From Candidatus Binataceae bacterium (GTDB taxonomy: Bacteria > Desulfobacterota > Binatia > Binatales > Binataceae), in the NCBI GenBank assembly GCA_036489375.1, contig DASXFX010000054.1, positions 210 to 64,209 on the forward strand: DNA of 64,000 nucleotides, written 5' to 3'. Under the pieces are notes generated by a model, which did not search any database, was not told the DNA's origin, and saw nothing but the letters and a program-made list of their open reading frames with translations. Positions 40,903 to 49,265 of this stretch are shown one piece after another. Numbering within the stretch: position 1 is the first letter of the stretch; every line of letters begins with the position of its first letter. The position numbers were made by a program, and so were the translations under genes.

Positions 40903-42717
40903 CTATTGATTATTGGCGCTGCGATTGTCGGCAACTTGCGCGTTGATCGCATAGGGCCCAGCGCCGAAGGTAGGCAGGATAACCCATTTCAGGCCGGAAG
41001 TATCGACGCCCCCTTGCGAGGTTCCGCTTGAATTATGTTCGAGCCTCGCGCTGCTAATCATGCGCGCCTGCATACCGAGCAAATGCGCCGACTTTATCGC
41101 ATCGCCGAGACTGACGAAGTGCATCGGCAAGGGCAGCCTGTCACCCCAATCGACGTAGCCGTAAGAGAAGAAATCACCGTCAGTCTGACCGGGATTATTG
41201 GGCGCATTTGGCGTGATCATAATCGCCTGCTGCTTCAAGGCGGAATAAAAGCTCAGCTTCACCATGATAAGGCCGGCACTGGTCTGGACGTAAAATGGAT
41301 ATGGATTGACGGGTGTTTGTTGCTGCAACTCGACATCAATCTCGATCAGTTGCGCATCAGGCGACCATTGTTGCGCGCGGACGAGTGCCTTTTGCGCCAT
41401 CGTTTCCAGATCGGGCAAAGGCCAGGAGTCTTTCAAGGGTGCGATCTCGCCTGAATGCGCGGCCGTAATCGATGCGTACGGGTTGGCAGGATTGTAGTTG
41501 GCTAACGGATTCGAACCCTGAGGGGACGGCTGCGATGCCGGCGCGCTGCTTTGCGCTGAAGGTTGATTGGGAGTGGGGGCGGAATTGCTATGAAACATGA
41601 GGAAACCGACCAGAAATGCGATCACGATCACGCCGGCACCGATCGCGGGTATCGCCCAAGAGGGCAACGACCTTAAAAATTCGGCCAGACCGGGTCCTGG
41701 ATCCGGTTGTGGCGGTGGAGGAGGAGGCACGGGCTGGCCGCCTTGGGGAAGGCCAATCGCGGCCTGAAAGTCCTGGATGGTCGGATAGCGCTGCGCGGCT
41801 TTGACGGCGAGCGACGTCATCAGAGCCTGCTCGGCGGCGTGGGGAATATCGGCGCCAACCGCACTCGGCAACTGAATTGTGTCTTCGGCGAGGCGATCGA
41901 TCGATGGCGGCGGAATCGAGCCGGTGAGGAGATGATAGAAGGTTGCGCCGACTGCATAGACGTCGGTCCAGGGTCCCTGCTTGCCCGTGCTGCGATATTG
42001 CTCTTCCGGTGCGTAGCCGACTTTAAGGATCACCGAAAGACGCTGGCTGCGATCGCGCAAGGCCTGGCGTGCCGCGCCGAAGTCGAGCAGCTTAACCAAC
42101 CCCGAGGTCGTGACATAAATGTTGTCGGGGCTGATGTCCCGATGGAGGACGTTGACCCGATGCACCTCGCGCAGCGCGTCCATCACCGGCGTCATGATGC
42201 CGAGGGCCTCATCGAAGGCGAGACGGCCGCCGCGATCTTTCAAGTGATCTTTGAGGGTGGTGCCCTCAAGATATTCCATCACGAGGTAGGCGGTGCCGTG
42301 CGCGGGAAAGAAATTGGTGACCGAGATAATTCCGGGATGGCCTTCGAACTGCGCGACCATCCGCGCTTCATCGAGGAAGCGCTCGAGGCCGTAGTTGAAG
42401 TCGTCCTTTGACGGTCCGCTGTGCGGCACGACCTCACTGGTATCAACTGAGCGGCTGGCCATTCCGCTCGGCATGTATTCCTTGATCGCGATGCGGCGGG
42501 CGAGGCGGATATCCCAAGCGAGGTAGGTGATCGCGAAGCCGCCTGCGCCAAGCGCGCGGCCGACGATATATTGATCGTTGAGCACCGAGCGCGGTGGCAG
42601 TTGGAACGGCACCGAAGGCGGTCCATTCTCGTCGAAGCCGCAAGTGGGGCAGATCGCAGCGCCACCGCGATCGATCATGCAGCCCATGCAAAGGCGCGCG
42701 GTTTCGTCTGGGGGCAT
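40903..42717 (-). CDS. Hanks-type Ser/Thr protein kinase with N-terminal zinc ribbon, one TM helix and a roughly 230-aa extracytoplasmic domain of unknown fold
   Basis: It has CMGC...CPTC, GAGGFAITY, IAIKEY, HRDISPDN, DFGAA and GYAPEE, with the TM helix IPAIGAGVIVIAFLVGFLMF. The start at MPPDE (42717) lies 1 nt after the PP2C stop; the ORF is open to 42792. Confidence 0.9.
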   Translation of the reverse strand: MPPDETARLCMGCMIDRGGAAICPTCGFDENGPPSVPFQLPPRSVLNDQYIVGRALGAGGFAITYLAWDIRLARRIAIKEYMPSGMASRSVDTSEVVPHSGPSKDDFNYGLERFLDEARMVAQFEGHPGIISVTNFFPAHGTAYLVMEYLEGTTLKDHLKDRGGRLAFDEALGIMTPVMDALREVHRVNVLHRDISPDNIYVTTSGLVKLLDFGAARQALRDRSQRLSVILKVGYAPEEQYRSTGKQGPWTDVYAVGATFYHLLTGSIPPPSIDRLAEDTIQLPSAVGADIPHAAEQALMTSLAVKAAQRYPTIQDFQAAIGLPQGGQPVPPPPPPQPDPGPGLAEFLRSLPSWAIPAIGAGVIVIAFLVGFLMFHSNSAPTPNQPSAQSSAPASQPSPQGSNPLANYNPANPYASITAAHSGEIAPLKDSWPLPDLETMAQKALVRAQQWSPDAQLIEIDVELQQQTPVNPYPFYVQTSAGLIMVKLSFYSALKQQAIMITPNAPNNPGQTDGDFFSYGYVDWGDRLPLPMHFVSLGDAIKSAHLLGMQARMISSARLEHNSSGTSQGGVDTSGLKWVILPTFGAGPYAINAQVADNRSANNQ

Positions 42718-42718
42718 C

Positions 42719-43528
42719 CTATTTCGATTCCTGATTCGTAATCCTGATGCAGAGGACAGTAACGTTATCCTGATGCGGAAGTTCGCGTGCAAGTGCGCTC
42801 GCAGTCAGCGTGTCGGCGGTTTCCTGCGCATCGGCGGCGCTGGTCGCGATGCGCGCGATCTCCTCGTGGCTGAGCGCGCGATAGAGGCCGTCACTGCAAA
42901 GAATGACGGTATCGCCAGCAGTTACGGCAACGCCTTCGCTCGGCGAATCGATCTGGGCGATGCCGCCGGCGCCGACGTAACTCGTAAGCGCATCGCGATC
43001 GGGATCGATCGCCGCATCCTCCGGCGACATGACGCCGCGCTTCACCAACTCGGCGAGCTTCGCGCCCAGCGTATGCGGATGATTAAGCTGGGTCAGGGCG
43101 CCGTCACGGCAGAGATAAAGCGCACTGTCGCCTACTGACATCCAGTACAAACCCGATGGTGCGAAGGCCGCCGCCACCAGCGTCGAGCCGACGTCGCGCG
43201 CCAGATCGACCGCCGTAGCAAACTCGAATACGGAACGATCGGCAGCTTCGACTGCACGGCCCAAGGCCTGCGTGATCGGTTCGCCAATCTGTTTGGTCGC
43301 GTAATGCTGAAGAAAGGCGCGCACCGCGAGCTGGCTCGCTTCGGCGCCGTGGGCCATCCCGCCCATGCCATCGGCGACGATCGCCAGCATCCCGCCGTGC
43401 GCCATAAGGCCGGCGTCGTTGGGATCGGAGAACCCGAACGAGTCCTGCTGATCCTCGCGCTTGCCTACGTCCTGGGCATTGCCGGGCGCGTAAACCAGCC
43501 CGTCAGTCCCAATGAAATGTGTCGTCAC
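42719..43528 (-). CDS. PP2C-family Ser/Thr phosphatase
   Basis: 269 aa, with GKREDQQDSF, VADGMGGMAHG and LCSDGL motifs. Confidence 0.9.
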   Translation of the reverse strand: MTTHFIGTDGLVYAPGNAQDVGKREDQQDSFGFSDPNDAGLMAHGGMLAIVADGMGGMAHGAEASQLAVRAFLQHYATKQIGEPITQALGRAVEAADRSVFEFATAVDLARDVGSTLVAAAFAPSGLYWMSVGDSALYLCRDGALTQLNHPHTLGAKLAELVKRGVMSPEDAAIDPDRDALTSYVGAGGIAQIDSPSEGVAVTAGDTVILCSDGLYRALSHEEIARIATSAADAQETADTLTASALARELPHQDNVTVLCIRITNQESK

Positions 43529-44081
43529 AAAGGGGCCAGAACATCAGCTTGCTTTTGCCGACTTCGACGATATCTCGCGAGGTCAGTTTCATCGGCGTGT
43601 TGACCATCTGCTCGTTGAGATACACCAGACCCGCCGCTTCGCCCGGCAGTATCCAGAAAACGCGATGCTTCGGATCGTAGGCGACTGATGCGTGCTTGTC
43701 ACGTGACACGCTCTCATCGCCGGTGAGCGCAATATCCATCGCAGGACTGCGGCCGATGAAATTCTTCTCGCCGTGGATCCTGAAGTCGCGACCCTTGTCC
43801 GGGCCCTCGACGCACACCAGCCAGCCGACGACGGGACTTATGCCCGACGAAGTATCGCGATAGACCGCGCGCGTTACGCCAGGGTCGGCCGAGGCTATTG
43901 GCGCTGCTGGTGGAGGAGCCGCGGGAGCCGCTGCGACCGGCGCCGGCGCGGGCGCGCTTGCGTGATCGGGTACGCGTCGCGTTTTTCCTTCGACGACATC
44001 GGCGCCCACCCCGCAATAGGGACACGACGTATGCTTGGCGGCGTCGTAGAAGTGACCGTGACTGCATCGCATCATCGCCAT
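43503..44081 (-). CDS. zinc-ribbon + FHA domain protein
   Basis: The N-terminal CSHGH...CPYCG is followed by a Pro/Ala linker and an FHA core (IGRSPAMDIALTGDESVSRDKHASV...NEQMV). It overlaps the PP2C start by 26 nt. Confidence 0.85.
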   Translation of the reverse strand: MAMMRCSHGHFYDAAKHTSCPYCGVGADVVEGKTRRVPDHASAPAPAPVAAAPAAPPPAAPIASADPGVTRAVYRDTSSGISPVVGWLVCVEGPDKGRDFRIHGEKNFIGRSPAMDIALTGDESVSRDKHASVAYDPKHRVFWILPGEAAGLVYLNEQMVNTPMKLTSRDIVEVGKSKLMFWPLCDDTFHWD

Positions 44082-44094
44082 CGTAAAATCACCC

Positions 44095-44679
44095 TCAATC
44101 GAAAAGGCTGGCGGCGTAATCGCCGGTTCCGACGTTGAAATCGAATTGAACGTCCTGGCTTTGCTGGATGACGAGATTTTTCGAACGCGGCTGGGCGTTC
44201 ACCGTCGAAAGTGAAATCGTGCAGGCACCCGGTTTGGTCAGGTTCGCACTGGCCTCGAAGTGGTACGGCCCCGGATGAATGGCGAAGAGGTAGATGCCGT
44301 AGGAACTGCCGTCAGGCTGCGCATCCGTGGAACGATAGCCAACGGACGGCGCGCCGGACGGCTGGATCGCCGACTTGAGCACAAAGGTGGCACAGGGTAG
44401 ATTCTGGTCGTTACTCCCACCGATCGACAGCAGTGCAAAGGGCGGCATCTGATTTCCCGACGCCTTCTCGGCGGCGATCTGCGCCTTGAGACTCTCGTTC
44501 TTGGACTTGAGGTCGGCGGTTTCGGCGTTGCCGCTCGAACTCGCCGCCGACGCGTTCTGCGCCTTGAAGTAGTATGGGAACAACGCAAGCGTCAGGAAAC
44601 AGAACGCGCCGAGCGCGCCCGTCAGCAAGTCGAGCACCGACATGTTGAAGATGCTGACCTCGCGATTGCGCGGCTTCAT
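44095..44679 (-). CDS. TolR/ExbD-like single-pass membrane protein, paralog 2, with a non-canonical periplasmic domain
   Basis: MKPRNREVSIFNMSVLDLLTGALGAFCFLTLALF has the basic N-terminus, TM helix and membrane-embedded Asp17 positioned as in TolR D23 and ExbD D25. A coiled-coil-like segment and a beta-rich domain follow. Confidence 0.55.
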   Translation of the reverse strand: MKPRNREVSIFNMSVLDLLTGALGAFCFLTLALFPYYFKAQNASAASSSGNAETADLKSKNESLKAQIAAEKASGNQMPPFALLSIGGSNDQNLPCATFVLKSAIQPSGAPSVGYRSTDAQPDGSSYGIYLFAIHPGPYHFEASANLTKPGACTISLSTVNAQPRSKNLVIQQSQDVQFDFNVGTGDYAASLFD

Positions 44680-44738
44680 CGTGCGCTCCGCTCAATTCGT
44701 AGGTACGCTTTCACTTGATAGTTCATAGCCGGGCCTGA

Positions 44739-45335
44739 TCAATTCTTAAAAACCTGTGCAAATTGCAGATCGGCAGCTTGCACGTCGAAATTCAGATTGT
44801 ACGACGTGAGTGCGGTCCCACTGAGGTCCTGACTCACCTGTTGAGTACCGCTCGCACCGTACTCAAACACATAGATGGTGCAGGGCAGGCTCTGTGCATG
44901 GGCGGTTAGCGAAAGATTGTAGGTGCCGGGCGCCAGCAGGAACATGTTCAGGTTCAGGTCGTAGCCGTTTTGAACGTAGTTAGGCAGCATCTTGACCGCC
45001 GCTTCACCCCCTGGGCCACTCGCGCTTGCGACCTGGAAGGCACCGCAAACCGTATTCTGCGGGTTCGACATCGTCACAAACGCCATCGCAAACGGCGGCA
45101 TCCCGTTCTGGTTCGCTTTGGCGCTGGCCAGCTCGCTCTCGAGTTTGACATGGACTTCTTTCAGGGCTTGGGCTGCCTTTGCTTCCGCAGCCTTATCCGC
45201 AGCGGAGCCGCCGACAACCTTGAAGTAGGAAGGGAATAACGCGAGGGTCAGGAAACAAAACGCCCCAAGTGCCCCCGTCAACAGGTCGAGCACCGACATG
45301 TTGAAGATATTGACCTCGCGATTGCGCGGCTTCAC
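44739..45335 (-). CDS. TolR/ExbD-like single-pass membrane protein, paralog 1
   Basis: The GTG start at 45335 overlaps the stop of the MotA/ExbB-like gene (GTGA). VKPRNREVNIFNMSVLDLLTGALGAFCFLTLALF is nearly identical to paralog 2. The longer ORF that runs to 45602 is rejected. Confidence 0.55.
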   Translation of the reverse strand: MKPRNREVNIFNMSVLDLLTGALGAFCFLTLALFPSYFKVVGGSAADKAAEAKAAQALKEVHVKLESELASAKANQNGMPPFAMAFVTMSNPQNTVCGAFQVASASGPGGEAAVKMLPNYVQNGYDLNLNMFLLAPGTYNLSLTAHAQSLPCTIYVFEYGASGTQQVSQDLSGTALTSYNLNFDVQAADLQFAQVFKN

Positions 45336-46201
45336 CGGGGTCCCTCGTACAGCCGATTGATCAGGTTGCGTAGCGTGTAAGTGCCCGCGAGATTGATCGC
45401 CGTCTCTTCCTTCTCCTGCGCGAGATACAGCACAAAGACCAGGATTGCGCTCTCCATCAGCGCGACCATCGTACAGTTGAAGCCGAGCGACAGGGCCTGC
45501 GCGATTTCGTAAATGGAGATGTTGCCGTTCTCCGGCACCAGCGCGAGCGACCCGCCCAGGCCGACCACGGTGCCGATAAATCCCACGGTCGGAATCAGCC
45601 ACGCGATGTAGCGGATCAGCCCATAGCGCAGATCGACGCGATGCTCGATCAACTCCAGGCTTGAATTCATCACCCCGACGACCTGCTCGACCGAACGGCC
45701 CGACTGGAATTGCAGGATGGACACGTCGATCAGGTACGGCAGGAATCCATGCTCGCGGCCAAACATGTGCGCAACGCGACGGCGGATTGGGGCGAGGTCA
45801 GCTTGCTGCAGCACGGTTTCCTGATCCTCGGGCAGCAGATGCATTTCGGCAAACGCGTGTTCGCTAAGCGCGGATCGCCAACGCACCCACAGTTCGCCCA
45901 GCCCGATGAAAAACAGGATGTGCTCGAGATTCTGGATCGTGAAGGGATAGGGAAAATGCGAATACTTGCTGTGATCGGTCAGAATCTCGGCGCCGTGGCT
46001 GTCTTTCGGAAAGATGATCGTAAGCGCGATGATGAACAAGACTGCCGCGCCGAGCGAGAGCAGCATCACCGTCCGCCGATCGGGCGTCGTCGAGAGTTGC
46101 TCAATCAGTCCGCTTCCGTGCGCTGCAGTAGGGGTTCGCTGTTCGATTGGGGCCTTCGGCGGAGCGGGAGGTACCGGCGCTGCCTGCGATGGTTGACTCA
46201 T
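45332..46201 (-). CDS. MotA/TolQ/ExbB-family proton channel protein
   Basis: 289 aa with TolQ-like topology: TM1 at res about 45-65, a cytoplasmic loop of about 130 aa, then IPTVGFIGTVVGLGG and IAQALSLGFNCTMVALMESAILVFVLYL, which resemble the MotA_ExbB signature. Confidence 0.7.
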   Translation of the reverse strand: MSQPSQAAPVPPAPPKAPIEQRTPTAAHGSGLIEQLSTTPDRRTVMLLSLGAAVLFIIALTIIFPKDSHGAEILTDHSKYSHFPYPFTIQNLEHILFFIGLGELWVRWRSALSEHAFAEMHLLPEDQETVLQQADLAPIRRRVAHMFGREHGFLPYLIDVSILQFQSGRSVEQVVGVMNSSLELIEHRVDLRYGLIRYIAWLIPTVGFIGTVVGLGGSLALVPENGNISIYEIAQALSLGFNCTMVALMESAILVFVLYLAQEKEETAINLAGTYTLRNLINRLYEGPR

Positions 46202-46228: not shown

Positions 46229-46759
46229 TCATTCACCGCATACCGGGCAGCGCTGCCCGCGTGTTTTGATCGCTCCGCAATCACATCGTATCAATGCCGA
46301 TTTACCGCTGGACGCCTTCTGCGGGGGCGGCGGTCGTACAACTCCCTGCGCGGGTACTGGTGTGGGCGTCACTGCCGGAGATGGCGCCACTGCTGGAGAT
46401 GGCGCGAGGACCTGCGCCGGGGCAGAAGCGGGCGGCGCAACCGAACTCGACAACGCCTCGAAGACATCTCGCGCGGCCAGCGTCACTTCGCCGAAGCGCA
46501 GAGTGTCGGTGAGAAATATCGTTTCCTCGCCGAGTTTGAACTCGCGCCCCTGGCGCAGCAGCACGGTGCCGTTCTGGCTGCCGAGATCACGCACCAGCAT
46601 TCGATCGTTACCCAGCATCAGAATCTCGGCATGAACCCGGCTGACCGAATCGTCTGCGATAGGGATGTCGCAGGTCGTGGCGCGTCCCAAGGTGAATTTA
46701 CGTGAGCTCATAAGGCGGACTTCGCTTCGCCCCTCGAGAATACCGTGGAGTTCCCGCAT
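46229..46759 (-). CDS. FHA domain protein with C-terminal zinc ribbon
   Basis: The FHA core is FTLGRATTCDIPIADDSVSRVHAEI...GSQNGT. A Pro-rich linker follows, and the C-terminus is CDCG...CPVCGE. Confidence 0.85.
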   Translation of the reverse strand: MRELHGILEGRSEVRLMSSRKFTLGRATTCDIPIADDSVSRVHAEILMLGNDRMLVRDLGSQNGTVLLRQGREFKLGEETIFLTDTLRFGEVTLAARDVFEALSSSVAPPASAPAQVLAPSPAVAPSPAVTPTPVPAQGVVRPPPPQKASSGKSALIRCDCGAIKTRGQRCPVCGE

Positions 46760-47224: not shown

Positions 47225-48154
47225 ATGGCCGATGACACAGACTCAACCGTGGATACGACAACCACCGGATCGACCGATTCGAGCGATCAGACGACCACCG
47301 ACTCCACCACGACCAACGCAAGCGACCCGACGTCGGCGGACGCGTCATCGCAAGGCTCAGGAACGCCAGCGGCGAGCGCAAACGACCCGGGTCAACCTTA
47401 TCTCTTCGTTGATCTTTACTCCGGAGACGACGGCCGACTGGTCGGGAAGCATCCAAACTGGCCGGTTCTCGCGAGCACCAGCGGCTATTTCGGAGCGATC
47501 CTGAAGGCCTGGGACGGCACGCAATTCAACGATGGAGGCTGGTTCCAGCGAAACTGGCCCGCGGTCCGTGGCGCGGGCGGTGATCGTTATGGCGACGCGT
47601 GGTTTCGCGGCGCTTACCTGTTCCTAGAATTTCTGCAGAGCGGAGCGGACCAGGCGGATGCATATTTGAAGGCGGTGGACGCGGCTGGCGGCTGGGACCG
47701 CGGCGACATCCTGCCGATCATCGACGTGGAGCAAGGGGGCGAGGGCAAGCCGGCCGCCAACGGCAAGCCGGCGGTAGCGCCTCATCCGAATCGCTCCGCG
47801 AGCAAACAGCAAGTGATCGATTGCGCGACGGCGTGCGCCAACCGAATCCGGGAATGCACCGGTCGCCGCGTGATCCTGTACGGGCGCGGAGCGATGCGCG
47901 ATCTCAGCATCAACGATCGCATGGGATGCGACCTCGTGTGGAATCCCGCATACACCGCGACGATGGTGATGCACGGCCTCGAAGCTTGGAACCTGGAGGA
48001 CGTCGTGCTGTGGCAATACTGCGGCGACGGGACGGCGGCGGTCGCCAAGCTGCCGCGTTCGGTGCCCGGATTCGGCACGTGCGACTTGAGTGTATTCGTG
48101 AAAGGCGCGCAAGCCCCGACCTTGCAAATGGTTCGCGACAACCTGCTGTCGTAG
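47225..48154 (+). CDS. GH25-family muramidase (lysozyme) with Thr/Ser/Asp-rich N-terminal tail and no signal peptide
   Basis: GH25-like motifs appear in order: FVDLYSG, RGAYLFLEF, ILPIIDVEQGG, VLWQYCGDG, CDLSVF. The N-terminal 57 aa are low complexity (about 17 Thr). A GAAGGGGAG RBS precedes the ATG. Confidence 0.75.
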   Translation: MADDTDSTVDTTTTGSTDSSDQTTTDSTTTNASDPTSADASSQGSGTPAASANDPGQPYLFVDLYSGDDGRLVGKHPNWPVLASTSGYFGAILKAWDGTQFNDGGWFQRNWPAVRGAGGDRYGDAWFRGAYLFLEFLQSGADQADAYLKAVDAAGGWDRGDILPIIDVEQGGEGKPAANGKPAVAPHPNRSASKQQVIDCATACANRIRECTGRRVILYGRGAMRDLSINDRMGCDLVWNPAYTATMVMHGLEAWNLEDVVLWQYCGDGTAAVAKLPRSVPGFGTCDLSVFVKGAQAPTLQMVRDNLLS

Positions 48155-48342: not shown

Positions 48343-48708
48343 TCAGAATCCGAAGAAGAGATTGATACCCTGCGGCGGCGCCGAGTACTCGGGGCCCGGC
48401 GCATAATATTGGTCCGGCTCCGGCACGGAATAGTAGTTCGGTTGCGGCGCATAGTAATAATCGGTCCGCGGCGGATGGTACGCGGGTCCGCGGCCGCCGT
48501 GATTGCGGTCATCGTGATGTTGAGCGCCGCCATGATCGCCACCGCCGTGATGGTCGTCGGCGACAGCCGGCGACACCGTGAAGCAGCCGATCACTAAAGC
48601 GAACGTGGTTACCGCCACGATCCCCACTATCCTAAAGCGCACGGTCTTTTCCGGCCTTGGCGATAACTGCATGCTGCCTCTCCAACGCGGGAACGACCCC
48701 CGCTTCAC
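48343..48708 (-). CDS. small exported His/Gly- and Tyr/Pro-rich protein
   Basis: The hydrophobic N-terminus IVGIVAVTTFALVIGCF is followed by DDHHGGGDHGGAQHHDDRNHGG and YYYAPQPNYYSVPEPDQYYAPGPEY. The start is either the GTG at 48708 (GTGA overlap with the upstream stop) or the ATG at 48672. Confidence 0.5.
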   Translation of the reverse strand: MKRGSFPRWRGSMQLSPRPEKTVRFRIVGIVAVTTFALVIGCFTVSPAVADDHHGGGDHGGAQHHDDRNHGGRGPAYHPPRTDYYYAPQPNYYSVPEPDQYYAPGPEYSAPPQGINLFFGF

Positions 48709-49265
48709 TTGTTCTCCGCGGTCTGCTTGGCTGCCGAAACCCGTTCACGAGTGCGGAACAGGGAGTCCGCACTTTTCTTCTGTGCGTCCGACATGGTGTC
48801 GTAGAGCGCCTCGAAGGGCGGAATGAATTTCTTCATTCCAGCATCGTGCGCTTCGATGACCAGCTCATAGGATTTGACGAAGTCCACCGCGGTCATCGAT
48901 TGCGCGTCGGCATTGCGCTGTTTTTGAAGGTCCATCATCGCGAGCGCGTTGTTGCGCATCACTTGCGCGAGATCGTCCCATTGGGGCTTCTGCGCAGCCG
49001 TAATGTGGAGTTTCTTGTGCAGATCCCTGATGTGCGCCTCGACCGCCGCGGGCCCGGCTGATTCCGCCATTGGGGCTGCCATCGCCGTCTCTGAAGAAGC
49101 CTTGGCGAGCAGCACGGGAGCCACCGGCGACTGGTTCGCGGCGGCCTGCGGGAAATTACCTGAGGAGGCAAACAAGGGACCGGCGAGAACGAGCGCGCCG
49201 ATCATCGTCACCGCGGCGCTGGTTGCGCGGGCGCCTGGATGCTTGAAGAGGTTCATGATGTACAC
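48705..49265 (-). CDS. Spy/CpxP-like periplasmic protein (LTxxQ motifs)
   Basis: It has a signal peptide, LHITAAQKPQW and MSDAQKKSADSL LTxxQ-like motifs, and helical composition. Confidence 0.55.
   Translation of the reverse strand: MYIMNLFKHPGARATSAAVTMIGALVLAGPLFASSGNFPQAAANQSPVAPVLLAKASSETAMAAPMAESAGPAAVEAHIRDLHKKLHITAAQKPQWDDLAQVMRNNALAMMDLQKQRNADAQSMTAVDFVKSYELVIEAHDAGMKKFIPPFEALYDTMSDAQKKSADSLFRTRERVSAAKQTAENK

What the first reader, a model, noticed from the sequence alone, without database searches (positions are those of the whole stretch)
44095..45335. Two tandem TolR/ExbD-like paralogs: near-identical TM anchors with a conserved membrane Asp, but diverged non-ExbD periplasmic domains
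Both proteins begin (M/V)KPRNREV(S/N)IFNMSVLDLLTGALGAFCFLTLALFP. This gives a basic cytoplasmic tip followed by a TM helix with Asp17 positioned like the proton-binding Asp of TolR (D23), ExbD (D25) and MotB (D32). At the DNA level, the 89 nt encoding this anchor (44591-44679 versus 45247-45335) differ at only about 10 positions in my hand alignment. Two runs of 24 nt are identical. The rest of each gene has diverged heavily: a coiled-coil-like Ala/Lys/Glu segment, then a beta-rich domain sharing only scattered motifs such as NQ(N/M)PPFA and C(A/G)(T/A)F. One channel gene with two different TolR-like partners mirrors the AglR/AglQ/AglS gliding motor of Myxococcus. However, these periplasmic domains do not look like canonical ExbD/TolR or OmpA-like peptidoglycan-binding domains. 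The anchor is conserved far more strongly than the periplasmic domains. That pattern suggests both paralogs plug into the same channel while contacting different periplasmic targets.
Basis: seen in the sequence. Interest (0 to 1): 0.7.

Follow-up and report, generated by a model that had tools for sequence, protein, structure and literature searches.

The report
New partner subunits for proton motor
Two neighbouring genes encode membrane-anchored proteins that most likely form the central "axle" of a previously undescribed proton-driven membrane motor, found in many soil bacteria and here wired to a protein-phosphorylation switch.

Summary
Two tandem minus-strand genes (parA 44739-45335, parB 44095-44679) share a near-identical 38-residue N-terminal anchor and a diverged C-terminus. 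The 89-nt anchors differ at 10 positions.

The anchor is a single membrane helix with Asp17. That Asp is present in 241 of 241 alignable homologues. The family has about 950 clusters at 50% identity in Binatota, Acidobacteriota and Verrucomicrobiota. It has no Pfam, NCBIfam or PADLOC model.

In about 90 loci, wherever upstream sequence is held, the gene lies directly downstream of a MotA/ExbB-family gene. The predicted fold of that gene's product is closest to TolQ/ExbB.

The periplasmic part is a helical stalk plus an 8-stranded beta-sandwich. It is not the ExbD fold and has no solved relative. It evolves faster than the anchor (omega 0.15-0.39 against 0-0.09).

Sequence homology to ExbD/TolR is not detectable. 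These proteins work like TolR/ExbD but are not shown to be members of that family.

The duplication is old and specific to Binataceae. The pair sits in a conserved operon: FHA, channel, parA, parB, FHA, PP2C, Ser/Thr kinase.

Best reading: a new B-subunit family of a TolQ-like 5:2-type motor, probably regulated by phospho-threonine. Its cellular output is unknown.

The parts
46229..46759 (-). FHA1: N-terminal FHA domain, Pro/Ala-rich linker and C-terminal CxC...CxxC zinc ribbon. First gene of the operon.
   Evidence: Pfam FHA E 1e-12. Cys motif read in the translation. Conserved at this position in Binataceae and Acidobacteriota loci.
45332..46201 (-). MotA/ExbB/TolQ-family channel (A) subunit, 289 aa. 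A GGAGG Shine-Dalgarno sequence lies upstream of the ATG.
   Evidence: Pfam PF01618 E 9e-10. AF2 pLDDT 82.8. Foldseek best hits are TolQ and ExbB, then MotA, PomA and ZorA. The TM2 motif P-x-x-G-x-x-G-T-V-x-G aligns to the TolQ T145 region. 100% identical to P0241, a Candidatus Binataceae MAG protein.
44739..45335 (-). parA, 198 aa. The GTG start overlaps the stop of the channel gene (GTGA). It comprises the anchor (residues 1-38), a helical stalk and a beta-sandwich.
45222..45335 (-). parA anchor, residues 1-38. It has a basic tip (KPRNRE) and a membrane helix of about residues 10-34. The Asp17 codon is GAC at 45285-45287.
44742..45098 (-). parA periplasmic beta domain (residues 80-198) with a conserved Cys pair (C97, C152).
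   Evidence: Homology to the parB domain. Cys positions.
44095..44679 (-). parB, 194 aa. ATG start with its own ribosome-binding site, 59 nt after parA. Same architecture as parA.
44566..44679 (-). parB anchor, residues 1-38. The Asp17 codon is GAC at 44629-44631.
44098..44445 (-). parB periplasmic beta-sandwich (residues 79-194), eight strands, with a conserved Cys pair (C96, C153). It is preceded by helix 51-73.
   Evidence: AF2 pLDDT above 90 over residues 81-180. No significant Foldseek match in PDB or BFVD.
43503..44081 (-). FHA2: N-terminal zinc ribbon, Pro/Ala linker and C-terminal FHA domain.
   Evidence: Pfam FHA E 1.4e-6. It has the lowest dN/dS of the seven genes compared, 0.06-0.07.
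42719..43528 (-). PP2C-type Ser/Thr phosphatase.
   Evidence: Pfam PP2C_2 E 7.5e-17.
40903..42792 (-). Hanks-type Ser/Thr kinase. It has an N-terminal zinc ribbon, a kinase domain, a Pro-rich linker, one TM segment (about 375-406) and an extracytoplasmic domain of about 220 aa that has no family match. These coordinates give the longest ORF. The likely start is the ATG at 42717, two nucleotides after the PP2C stop.
   Evidence: Pfam Pkinase E 2e-30. TM from a hydropathy scan. Sequence.

Best explanation
parA and parB are paralogous B-type (axle or plug) subunits of a previously undescribed TolQ/ExbB-like ion-driven motor of the 5:2 kind.

**Proposed architecture**
- Each protein has a short basic cytoplasmic tip.
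- Each has one membrane helix carrying the invariant Asp17. This is inferred to sit inside a pentamer of the upstream MotA/ExbB-family protein and to carry the proton, as TolR D23, ExbD D25 and MotB D32 do.
- Each has a periplasmic helical stalk that holds a disulfide-capable beta-sandwich head.

**Modular design**
- The anchor is the constant module that plugs into the motor.
- The stalk and head form a variable output or targeting module. In other phyla it is replaced by other beta-rich domains or by much longer coiled coils.

**The duplication**
- In Binataceae an old duplication produced two B subunits, and every genome examined keeps both.
- Either they form a heterodimeric axle, as predicted for AglQ/AglS, or they build two alternative motors on one channel.

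**Regulation**
- The operon also encodes two FHA/zinc-ribbon proteins, a PP2C phosphatase and a transmembrane Ser/Thr kinase.
- Motor assembly or activity is therefore most likely gated by threonine phosphorylation. FHA domains would dock on the phosphorylated cytoplasmic face of the channel.

**Shown and inferred**
- Shown: gene adjacency, conservation, topology features, folds and evolutionary rates.
- Inferred: 5:2 stoichiometry, proton use, heterodimer formation, the phospho-target and the cellular output.
For: 1. **Adjacency.** In every fetched locus that holds upstream sequence (about 90 loci, three phyla), the anchor gene lies immediately downstream of a MotA/ExbB-family gene. The two often overlap by 4 nt.
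2. **Pair without the kinase module.** In Chthoniobacterales loci the pair occurs without FHA, PP2C or kinase genes. Channel plus anchor protein is therefore the core unit.
3. **Channel fold.** The AF2 model of the channel protein (pLDDT 82.8) matches only 5:2-motor A subunits among its top hits. TolQ gives TM 0.64-0.67, followed by ExbB, MotA, PomA and ZorA. The TolQ-type TM2 motif containing the channel Thr is invariant.
4. **Anchor conservation.** Eighteen positions within residues 13-35 are invariant in 102 sequences. Asp17 is present in 241/241 sequences. The profile search finds 949 clusters, always with the anchor at residue 1.
5. **Topology.** Three basic residues precede the helix. 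There is one hydrophobic segment. Every copy has a conserved Cys pair in the C-terminal domain.
6. **Modularity.** Distant homologues share only the anchor and stalk and carry different C-termini in the same operon slot.
7. **Selection.** Anchor omega is 0-0.09 and beta-domain omega is 0.15-0.39.
8. **Duplication.** The A and B clades each span Binataceae, apart from L022_B, which groups with the A clade. Both copies are kept in 14/14 genomes. Their stalk lengths co-vary, Spearman 0.92.
9. **Precedent.** AglR5-AglQ-AglS is modelled as a heterodimeric plug with an FHA domain docked on the pore (PMC11761067).
Against: - No sequence-level link to ExbD, TolR or MotB was found. There is no Pfam hit at E<=1. 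hhalign against ExbD/TolR gives probability 0.4% and does not align the anchor, although that comparison profile had low diversity. A profile search of PDB gives nothing at E<=10.
- AF2 did not model the N-terminal 50 residues as a confident helix (pLDDT below 50).
- No complex prediction could be run. Insertion into the channel, stoichiometry and heterodimer formation are all inferred.
- The stalk-length correlation and the clade-level co-variation of anchor and channel residues are not corrected for phylogeny.
- No phospho-acceptor site was identified.
- The cellular function of the motor is unknown.
Confidence: 0.7

Rival explanations
1. The proteins are true but extremely diverged members of the ExbD/TolR family. 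They would serve an ordinary Ton- or Tol-like system whose periplasmic domain has been replaced.
For: - The anchor motif IFNMS(V/L)LD(L/I)L resembles EINIVPLLDVL of TolR and INVTPFIDVM of ExbD when the sequences are read side by side.
- The partner protein has a TolQ/ExbB-like fold.
- The Asp lies near the cytoplasmic end of the helix, as in TolR and ExbD.
Against: - Neither paralogue nor any distant homologue hits PF02472 at E<=1.
- hhalign does not align the anchors.
- The periplasmic domain is all-beta and not the alpha/beta ExbD fold.
- No TonB-, TolA- or Pal-like gene lies in the operon, and no ExbD/TolR-like sequence occurs in the window or in the fetched loci.
- The operon partners are FHA, PP2C and kinase genes or a beta-helix protein. 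None of these is typical of Ton or Tol systems.
Confidence: 0.12
2. The proteins are bitopic scaffolds or sensors of the Ser/Thr-kinase pathway. The conserved helix would bind the kinase's membrane segment or another membrane protein and not the channel lumen. The MotA/ExbB-like protein would work independently.
For: - In Binatota and Acidobacteriota the genes are always co-operonic with FHA, PP2C and kinase genes.
- The kinase has a membrane helix and an extracytoplasmic domain.
Against: - In Chthoniobacterales the channel-anchor pair persists with no detectable FHA, PP2C or kinase gene within the fetched flanks.
- The coupling is with the channel gene: it is immediately adjacent and often overlaps.
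- An invariant buried Asp is the hallmark of ion-coupled B subunits and is not needed for a scaffold.
- The beta domain shows no meaningful similarity to the kinase ectodomain (E 0.035).
Confidence: 0.08
3. The N-terminus is a cleaved Sec signal peptide, and the products are soluble periplasmic or secreted beta-sandwich proteins.
For: - The N-terminus has a basic n-region and a hydrophobic core.
- Small residues follow the helix (ASA in parB, GSA in parA).
- AF2 gives low confidence for residues 1-50.
Against: - Signal peptides are not conserved at the sequence level. Here 18 positions are invariant and the segment is almost identical across three phyla.
- A charged Asp sits in the middle of the hydrophobic core in 241/241 sequences.
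- The candidate cleavage motifs lie 9-11 residues beyond the hydrophobic core and are not conserved in distant homologues.
- dN/dS of the segment is 0-0.09.
Confidence: 0.03
4. The whole operon is an envelope-surveillance or defence device of the Zorya type. The fast-evolving, duplicated periplasmic heads would sense an invader or envelope damage. The motor would then relay the signal to the kinase/FHA module.
For: - The periplasmic domains evolve two to four times faster than the other operon proteins.
- The domain is exchanged between lineages.
- There is a weak PADLOC ZorA match for the channel (E 0.008) and generic kinase matches to PD-T4-6.
- ZorA appears among the structural neighbours.
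Against: - Omega is well below 1 everywhere, so there is no gene-wide signature of an arms race.
- There is no effector such as a nuclease, protease or toxin in the Binataceae operon.
- The flanks are metabolic genes and not a defence island.
- The system is vertically conserved in every Binataceae genome examined, with the operon order intact. This is unlike patchy defence systems.
- The PADLOC matches are generic.
Confidence: 0.07

Closest known systems
TolQ-TolR and ExbB-ExbD (Tol-Pal and Ton motors)
   Same: - The A subunit has a TolQ/ExbB-like fold and the TM2 P..G..GTV.G motif.
- The partner is a small N-in bitopic protein with an invariant Asp near the cytoplasmic end of its helix.
- The partner is encoded directly downstream of the A subunit.
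   Different: - The anchor shows no detectable sequence homology to PF02472.
- The periplasmic part is a helical stalk plus a beta-sandwich, not the alpha/beta TolR/ExbD domain.
- There is no TolA, TonB or Pal gene in the operon.
- The operon carries FHA, PP2C and kinase genes.
AglR-AglQ-AglS with GltG/GltJ (Myxococcus gliding motor)
   Same: - One TolQ-like channel gene is paired with two different single-pass Asp-bearing partners, predicted to form a heterodimeric plug.
- An FHA domain (GltG) is predicted to dock on the cytoplasmic face of the pore, and GltJ carries a zinc-ribbon domain (PMC11761067).
- Here there are two FHA proteins, each with a zinc ribbon. FHA1 weakly matches the GltG model (E 7e-8, 31.5 bits against a cut-off of 650).
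   Different: - AglQ and AglS are TolR-like in fold, and these proteins are not.
- GltG and GltJ are membrane proteins with TonB-like C-termini. FHA1 and FHA2 have no hydrophobic segment.
- No other Glt genes lie nearby.
- A kinase/phosphatase pair is present here.
GldL-GldM / PorL-PorM (type IX secretion and gliding motor)
   Same: The B subunit is a bitopic protein whose periplasmic part is a dimeric helical region followed by beta-sandwich (Ig-like) domains reaching away from the membrane. This rests on established knowledge of GldLM structures and was not tested here.
   Different: - There is no Pfam GldM or PorM match.
- According to the published GldLM structures (recalled, not checked here), GldM has no membrane Asp; the key acidic residue is in GldL.
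- The A subunit here is structurally closer to TolQ/ExbB.
ZorA-ZorB (Zorya anti-phage motor)
   Same: It is a MotA/ExbB-family motor coupled to a cytoplasmic signalling output and not to flagella or transport. ZorA is among the structural neighbours, and there is a weak PADLOC ZorA hit.
   Different: - There is no long ZorA tail.
- No ZorB-type peptidoglycan-binding domain was detected (no OmpA-like Pfam hit).
- No ZorC/ZorD effectors were seen in the operon.
- Conservation is vertical and not island-like.
PpkA-PppA-Fha1 threonine-phosphorylation pathway of type VI secretion, and the actinobacterial FhaA-FhaB-PstP-PknA/B cluster
   Same: The operon logic is the same: a transmembrane Hanks kinase, a PP2C phosphatase and FHA proteins controlling a membrane machine. 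This comparison rests on established knowledge. FHA1 and FHA2 match FhaB/FipA and TagH models only at the domain level.
   Different: The controlled machine here is a MotA/ExbB-type motor. No such coupling was found in the searchable literature.

Membership tests
ExbD/TolR (Pfam PF02472) | Significant match to the family profile. | tested here: not met
   hmmscan against Pfam at E<=1 gives no PF02472 hit for parA, parB or nine homologues. hhalign of the family alignment against an ExbD/TolR alignment gives probability 0.4% and leaves the anchor unaligned. That ExbD/TolR profile had low diversity.
ExbD/TolR (Pfam PF02472) | Single N-in membrane helix with a conserved Asp near its cytoplasmic end. 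| tested here: met
   There is one hydrophobic segment, residues 10-36, after a basic tip. Asp17 is invariant in 102 sequences and in 241/241 sequences.
ExbD/TolR (Pfam PF02472) | Periplasmic alpha/beta domain of the TolR/ExbD type. | tested here: not met
   AF2 gives helix 51-73 followed by eight beta strands with no further helices. No ExbD or TolR chain appears among the 50 Foldseek PDB hits listed.
ExbD/TolR (Pfam PF02472) | Encoded next to an ExbB/TolQ-type gene. | tested here: met
   Immediately downstream in every locus that holds upstream sequence. The partner's fold is TolQ/ExbB-like.
MotB/PomB/ZorB (OmpA-like B subunits) | C-terminal OmpA-like peptidoglycan-binding domain. | tested here: not met
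   No OmpA-family Pfam hit. The fold is all-beta.
B subunit of a 5:2 ion-driven motor (functional class) | A dimer of membrane helices inside an A-subunit pentamer, with ion-coupled rotation. | not testable with these tools
   Only single-chain prediction was available. This needs a multimer prediction or cryo-EM.
MotA/ExbB/TolQ family (the upstream partner, PF01618) | Profile match above the gathering score, and the fold of a 5:2-motor A subunit. | tested here: met
   PF01618 scores 38.8 bits against a cut-off of 22.9. Foldseek gives TolQ 9avi_A at E 6e-4 with TM 0.64, and 9ddn_E with TM 0.67.
AglQ/AglS (Myxococcus) | TolR-like fold, and membership of an Agl-Glt gene set. | tested here: not met
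   The fold is not TolR-like. No Glt-like genes lie among the neighbours. Direct sequence comparison with AglQ/AglS was not run.
GldM/PorM | Match to the GldM_N/GldM_C profiles. | tested here: not met
   No such Pfam hit at E<=1.
Sec signal peptide (cleaved) | Poorly conserved hydrophobic core without charge, and an AxA site 3-7 residues after it. | tested here: not met
   The core is near-invariant and contains Asp. Candidate sites are distant and not conserved. No dedicated signal-peptide predictor was available.

The most novel reading that the evidence does not exclude
This is a distinct, so far undescribed class of 5:2-type proton motor. It has a TolQ-like pentamer and a new, non-ExbD axle family with exchangeable periplasmic heads. 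It is widespread in soil Acidobacteriota, Verrucomicrobiota and Binatota.

In Binatota and Acidobacteriota it is switched by a dedicated Ser/Thr kinase, PP2C and FHA module. That would make it the first ion-driven motor found in an operon dedicated to threonine-phosphorylation control. In Binataceae it would use a heterodimeric axle, as proposed for AglQ/AglS.
Probability: 0.4. Interest if true: 0.8.

Novelty: new variant of a known kind. Interest (0 to 1): 0.66.

Why it matters
Ion-driven 5:2 motors are known in only a handful of functional classes: MotAB, ExbBD, TolQR, AglRQS, GldLM and ZorAB. Each new class has revealed a new way in which cells use the proton gradient to do work beyond the inner membrane.

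- **A further candidate class.** It has about 950 sequence clusters at 50% identity in three phyla. Most named source genomes are soil and sediment MAGs. It has no Pfam or NCBIfam model, and no paper was found in four full-text searches.
- **A natural modular design.** An almost invariant anchor is combined with exchangeable periplasmic modules. This is a natural experiment in how motor output is retargeted.
- **A testable link between two systems.** The conserved operon link to a kinase, a phosphatase and two FHA proteins suggests a connection between Hanks-type signalling and a proton motor.
- **An independent case for an open question.** The retained parA/parB pair bears on whether two different B subunits share one channel as a heterodimer. 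That question is still open for AglQ/AglS.
- **A route to experiment.** A cultured carrier, Paludibaculum fermentans (locus L090), makes experiments feasible.

Tried and rejected
1. **Gene conversion between the anchors.** Rejected. Within-genome A-B DNA identity equals between-genome identity. The absence of synonymous differences in codons 2-17 recurs in all genomes, so it reflects codon bias and constraint.
2. **Gene-wide positive selection on the beta domain.** Not found. Omega is 0.15-0.39, and dS is near saturation. Site models were not run.
3. **Sequence link to ExbD/TolR.** Pfam, NCBIfam and PADLOC gave nothing. The PDB profile search gave nothing at E<=10. hhalign gave nothing. The TolR homologue search returned only enterobacterial sequences at 86% identity or more, so the comparison profile was shallow. 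That was a poor use of a capped search.
4. **Fold assignment of the beta domain.** In PDB the best hit is DUF4425 (3u6g) at E 0.05 with TM 0.35. In BFVD the best is E 4e-3 with TM 0.20. Both were rejected as uninformative.
5. **Similarity of the beta domain to the kinase ectodomain or to anything else in the window.** None.
6. **Pfam on distant homologues' C-termini.** Only coiled-coil noise.
7. **Structure prediction with locus-derived sequences.** It was repeated with database homologues.
8. **P0423.** This 6971-aa protein in the representatives search has 17 weak stretches against the profile's stalk and beta region. It lacks the anchor and was treated as a repeat artefact.
9. **Co-variation of anchor residues 20 and 30 with channel residues 206 and 242**. 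This is a single clade-level change, so it was not used as evidence.
10. **Literature.** Four full-text searches combining MotA, ExbB or TolQ with FHA, PP2C or kinase terms returned no paper. Two reviews or phylogenies of 5:2 motors do not mention FHA.
Full report
**1. What is in the sequence**

The finding's coordinates hold two tandem ORFs on the minus strand.
- parB is 44095-44679, 194 aa, with an ATG start.
- parA is 44739-45335, 198 aa. Its GTG start overlaps the TGA stop of the upstream gene.
- Independent gene calls on other contigs carrying the identical parB give the same 198-aa parA.

BLASTP between the two gives 47% identity over 156 residues, E 4e-38.

The DNA statement is exact.
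- The first 89 nt differ at 10 positions, with two identical runs of 24 nt.
- Within residues 1-35 the only differences are the start codon and residue 9.

**2. The DNA-level identity is not gene conversion**

I extracted parA and parB from 14 Binataceae genomes.
- Anchor DNA identity (nt 4-105) within a genome, A against B, averages 0.870.
- Between genomes it is 0.856 for A-A, 0.852 for B-B and 0.850 for A-B.
- The 5' 50 nt use the same codons in all genomes.

The pattern is purifying selection on the protein plus codon bias. It is not recent exchange between the copies.

**3. Context**

The two genes sit in a tightly packed seven-gene minus-strand operon:
- FHA1 (46229-46759): FHA domain plus C-terminal zinc ribbon.
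- A MotA/ExbB-family protein (45332-46201): Pfam PF01618, E 9e-10.
- parA.
- parB.
- FHA2 (43503-44081): zinc ribbon plus FHA domain.
- A PP2C phosphatase (42719-43528).
- A Hanks-type kinase (40903-42792) with an N-terminal zinc ribbon, one membrane segment and an extracytoplasmic domain of about 220 aa with no family match.

The channel protein is 100% identical to a protein of a Candidatus Binataceae MAG.

All nine Binataceae loci fetched with parB contain the same seven genes in the same order. The flanks are not conserved: the window's flanking GH25 and alpha/beta-hydrolase genes have no match in those loci. In the window the neighbours are metabolic genes, an LTXXQ protein and a GH25 muramidase. 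The seven genes are therefore the unit.

**4. The family**

Neither paralogue matches any model in Pfam, NCBIfam or PADLOC.
- The word-indexed search found 129 relatives. All are 'hypothetical', and the named ones are Binataceae.
- The weakest hits (214-285 aa) share only the anchor and a coiled-coil segment and have unrelated beta-rich C-termini.
- A pattern scan of GTDB species genomes with the anchor found 86 loci. They are in Binataceae, Acidobacteriota (Bryobacterales, Terriglobia, Vicinamibacterales, and the cultured Paludibaculum fermentans) and Verrucomicrobiota (Chthoniobacterales, Udaeobacter).
- An exhaustive profile search of 1.84 billion cluster representatives found 949 proteins at E<=1e-3 and 368 at E<=1e-10. 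Lengths are 52-510 aa, and the anchor is always at residue 1.

Conservation of the anchor is extreme.
- In 102 aligned sequences, M13, S14, V15, D17, L18, L19, T20, G21, A22, G24, A25, F26, C27, F28, L29, L31, L33 and P35 are invariant.
- Across 241 alignable sequences from both searches, Asp17 is present in all 241. I10, F11, N12, S14 and G24 are at about 100%.

**5. The partner**

In every fetched locus that holds upstream sequence, a homologue of the MotA/ExbB-family gene lies immediately upstream of the anchor gene. The two often overlap by four bases.
- The protein is strongly conserved across the three phyla, with mean column identity 60%.
- The TM2 motif P204, T205, G207, F208, I209, G210, T211 and the TM3 residues T244, A247, L248, S251, A252 are invariant.
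- Sequence searches of PDB give only marginal MotA/PomA hits, E about 0.1.
- The AF2 model (pLDDT 82.8, pTM 0.73) matches 5:2-motor A subunits throughout the 50 Foldseek hits listed.
- The best are TolQ (9avi_A, E 6e-4, TM 0.64; 9ddn_E, TM 0.67). ExbB, MotA, PomA and ZorA follow.
- hhalign places P..G..GTV.G onto the TolQ segment that contains T145 (weak, E 0.0024).

Whether the protein has three TM segments like TolQ or four like MotA remains open. Residues 95-106 form a short hydrophobic helix, and the conserved PDRR before TM1 would favour an N-in topology.

**6. Two operon types**

- In Binatota and Acidobacteriota the order is FHA, channel, X, FHA, PP2C, then the kinase. Acidobacteriota insert a trypsin-FHA fusion and a second PP2C-like gene before the kinase.
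- In Chthoniobacterales the channel-X pair is followed by a conserved right-handed beta-helix protein of about 700 aa. X is 300-430 aa with a long coiled coil. No FHA, PP2C or kinase homologue is detected in the flanks.

The channel-X pair is therefore the core, and the phospho-signalling genes are a lineage-specific control module. This argues against X being primarily a kinase scaffold.

**7. The periplasmic part**

AF2 on a 102-sequence alignment gives helix 51-73 and then eight strands between residues 82 and 183. pLDDT is above 90 over residues 81-180.
- Foldseek finds nothing significant. In PDB the best hit is DUF4425 at E 0.05 with TM 0.35. In BFVD the best is E 4e-3 with TM 0.20.
- This is not the alpha/beta ExbD/TolR fold and not an OmpA-like domain.
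- Every parA and parB has exactly three Cys: C27 in the helix, and a pair 54-58 residues apart in the beta domain. This fits an oxidising periplasmic location.
- The N-terminal 50 residues were modelled with pLDDT below 50 and without a helix. That neither supports nor refutes a membrane helix.

The case against a cleaved signal peptide rests on three points:
- The segment is invariant across three phyla.
- An Asp is buried in the hydrophobic core.
- The candidate cleavage sites are not conserved.

**8. Evolutionary rates**

I computed Nei-Gojobori estimates against six orthologous loci.

| Region or gene | dN/dS |
|---|---|
| Anchor | 0.00-0.09 |
| Stalk | 0.07-0.23 |
| Beta domain | 0.15-0.39 |
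| Channel | 0.07-0.13 |
| FHA2 | 0.06-0.07 |
| PP2C | 0.10-0.23 |
| Kinase | 0.12-0.20 |

The heads are under purifying selection but are the least constrained part of the operon. There is no gene-wide positive selection. dS is 0.3-2.5, so the estimates are rough.

**9. The duplication**

- A neighbour-joining tree of the non-anchor part separates an A clade and a B clade, each spanning the Binataceae genomes. L022_B is an exception and groups with the A clade.
- One divergent Binataceae lineage (L026) has its own pair.
- Both copies are present in 14 of 14 genomes.
- Outside Binataceae the gene is single-copy.
- The distance from the anchor to the first beta-domain Cys varies between genomes (77-101 residues) and co-varies between A and B (Spearman 0.92, n=14, not corrected for phylogeny).

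That fits two heads held at a matched height. A heterodimeric stalk would require this, and a common target layer would also explain it.

**10. Is it an ExbD/TolR?**

Read side by side, IFNMS(V/L)LD(L/I)L resembles EINIVPLLDVL of TolR and INVTPFIDVM of ExbD. The position of the Asp near the cytoplasmic end of the helix also matches.

The tests failed, however.
- There is no PF02472 hit at E<=1.
- hhalign of the family alignment against an ExbD/TolR alignment aligns only an irrelevant 7-residue stretch, probability 0.4%. That alignment used E. coli and Serratia ExbD, verified against PDB, plus E. coli TolR and seven related enterobacterial TolR sequences.
- The comparison profile was shallow, so this is absence of evidence. 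Together with the different periplasmic fold, it means family membership cannot be claimed.

The functional analogy stands on context and anatomy.

**11. Mechanism proposed**

- Shown:
  - An N-in bitopic protein with an invariant membrane Asp.
  - Always encoded next to a TolQ/ExbB-like channel protein that retains the channel threonines.
  - A modular, faster-evolving periplasmic stalk and head.
  - Linkage to FHA, PP2C and kinase genes in two phyla.
- Inferred:
  - Two anchor helices sit in a channel pentamer, and Asp17 cycles protons.
  - Rotation or a power stroke is transmitted through the stalk to the head.
  - In Binataceae the axle is a parA-parB heterodimer or two alternative homodimers.
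  - The kinase phosphorylates a cytoplasmic Thr of the machine, FHA1 and FHA2 bind it, and PP2C resets it.

The closest precedent is the Myxococcus Agl-Glt motor. Structural modelling there predicts an AglQ-AglS heterodimer in an AglR pentamer, with the FHA domain of GltG attached to the cytoplasmic face of the pore, and GltJ carries a zinc ribbon (PMC11761067). FHA1 even gives a sub-threshold hit to the GltG model (31.5 bits against a cut-off of 650). No other Glt genes are nearby, and the B subunits here are not TolR-like in fold.

**12. Novelty**

- Four full-text searches combining MotA, ExbB or TolQ with FHA, PP2C or kinase terms returned nothing.
- A review of 5:2 motors and a 2025 phylogeny of MotAB and its non-flagellar relatives do not mention FHA. 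The latter notes 'other proteins with unknown function' in the ExbB/TolQ-like clade.
- The anchor family is absent from Pfam-A (2025), NCBIfam (2026) and PADLOC.

I rate it a new variant of a known kind. It is an ion-driven motor of the MotA/ExbB type with a new B-subunit family and a new regulatory context. The cellular output (envelope maintenance, surface motility or secretion, or signalling) is unknown. That, together with the lack of any complex model, keeps the score below the top range.

Noticed in passing
window 46229-46759, 43503-44081, 40903-42792 (all minus strand): All three cytoplasmic signalling proteins of the operon carry a short Cys4- or Cys3His-type zinc ribbon. It is C-terminal in FHA1, N-terminal in FHA2 and N-terminal in the kinase. 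In FHA1 and FHA2 a Pro/Ala-rich linker joins it to the FHA domain. The shared module may be a common docking element.
   Followed up: partly
L054 7149-9254 and homologous positions in about 30 Chthoniobacterales loci (for example L045, L046, L057, L066, L086): In Verrucomicrobiota the channel-anchor pair is followed by a conserved right-handed beta-helix protein of about 700 aa (PF13229, NosD-like) in place of the FHA/PP2C/kinase genes. The anchor protein there is 300-430 aa with a long coiled coil.
   Followed up: partly
L090 8613-9830 (Paludibaculum fermentans) and many Acidobacteriota loci: Acidobacteriota versions of the operon insert a trypsin-like protease fused to an FHA domain, plus a second PP2C-like gene, between the PP2C and the kinase.
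   Followed up: partly
window 45332-46201 (residues 206 and 242) against anchor residues 20 and 30: Binataceae channels have V206 and N242 where nearly all other sampled lineages have L206 (a few M or F) and D242. Binataceae anchors have T20 and T30 where nearly all others have C20 and M30. This is one clade-level co-change. It is suggestive of contact but confounded by phylogeny.
   Followed up: partly
window 45332-46201, residues 93-109: A short, nearly invariant hydrophobic helix (ILFFIGLGELWVRWR) with a conserved acidic residue (E103; Asp in two Verrucomicrobiota loci) follows a conserved HFPYPFTIQN loop after TM1. It is unclear whether this is a fourth membrane segment as in MotA or a cytoplasmic helix as in TolQ.
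   Followed up: no
L026 497-1463 (a Binataceae MAG): A divergent Binataceae lineage has its own pair of anchor genes (171 and 174 aa). An FHA1-like segment follows them rather than preceding the channel, and about 1.5 kb lies before FHA2. This may be an independent duplication or a rearranged operon.
   Followed up: no
window 47225-48154 (+): A GH25 muramidase-like protein with a Thr/Ser/Asp-rich N-terminal region of about 60 residues is transcribed divergently from the operon. It is not conserved next to the operon in related genomes.
   Followed up: partly
window 48343-49265 (-): An LTXXQ-family (CpxP/Spy-like) periplasmic protein at 48705-49265 is followed by a small ORF rich in His, Gly and Tyr (HHGGGDHGG, repeated YY) with a hydrophobic N-terminus. 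The small ORF has no Pfam match.
   Followed up: no
P0423 (6971 aa): A giant repeat protein scored E 4e-24 against the family profile through 17 weak stretches that match the stalk and beta region only. It lacks the anchor, so this is probably a repeat or compositional artefact.
   Followed up: partly
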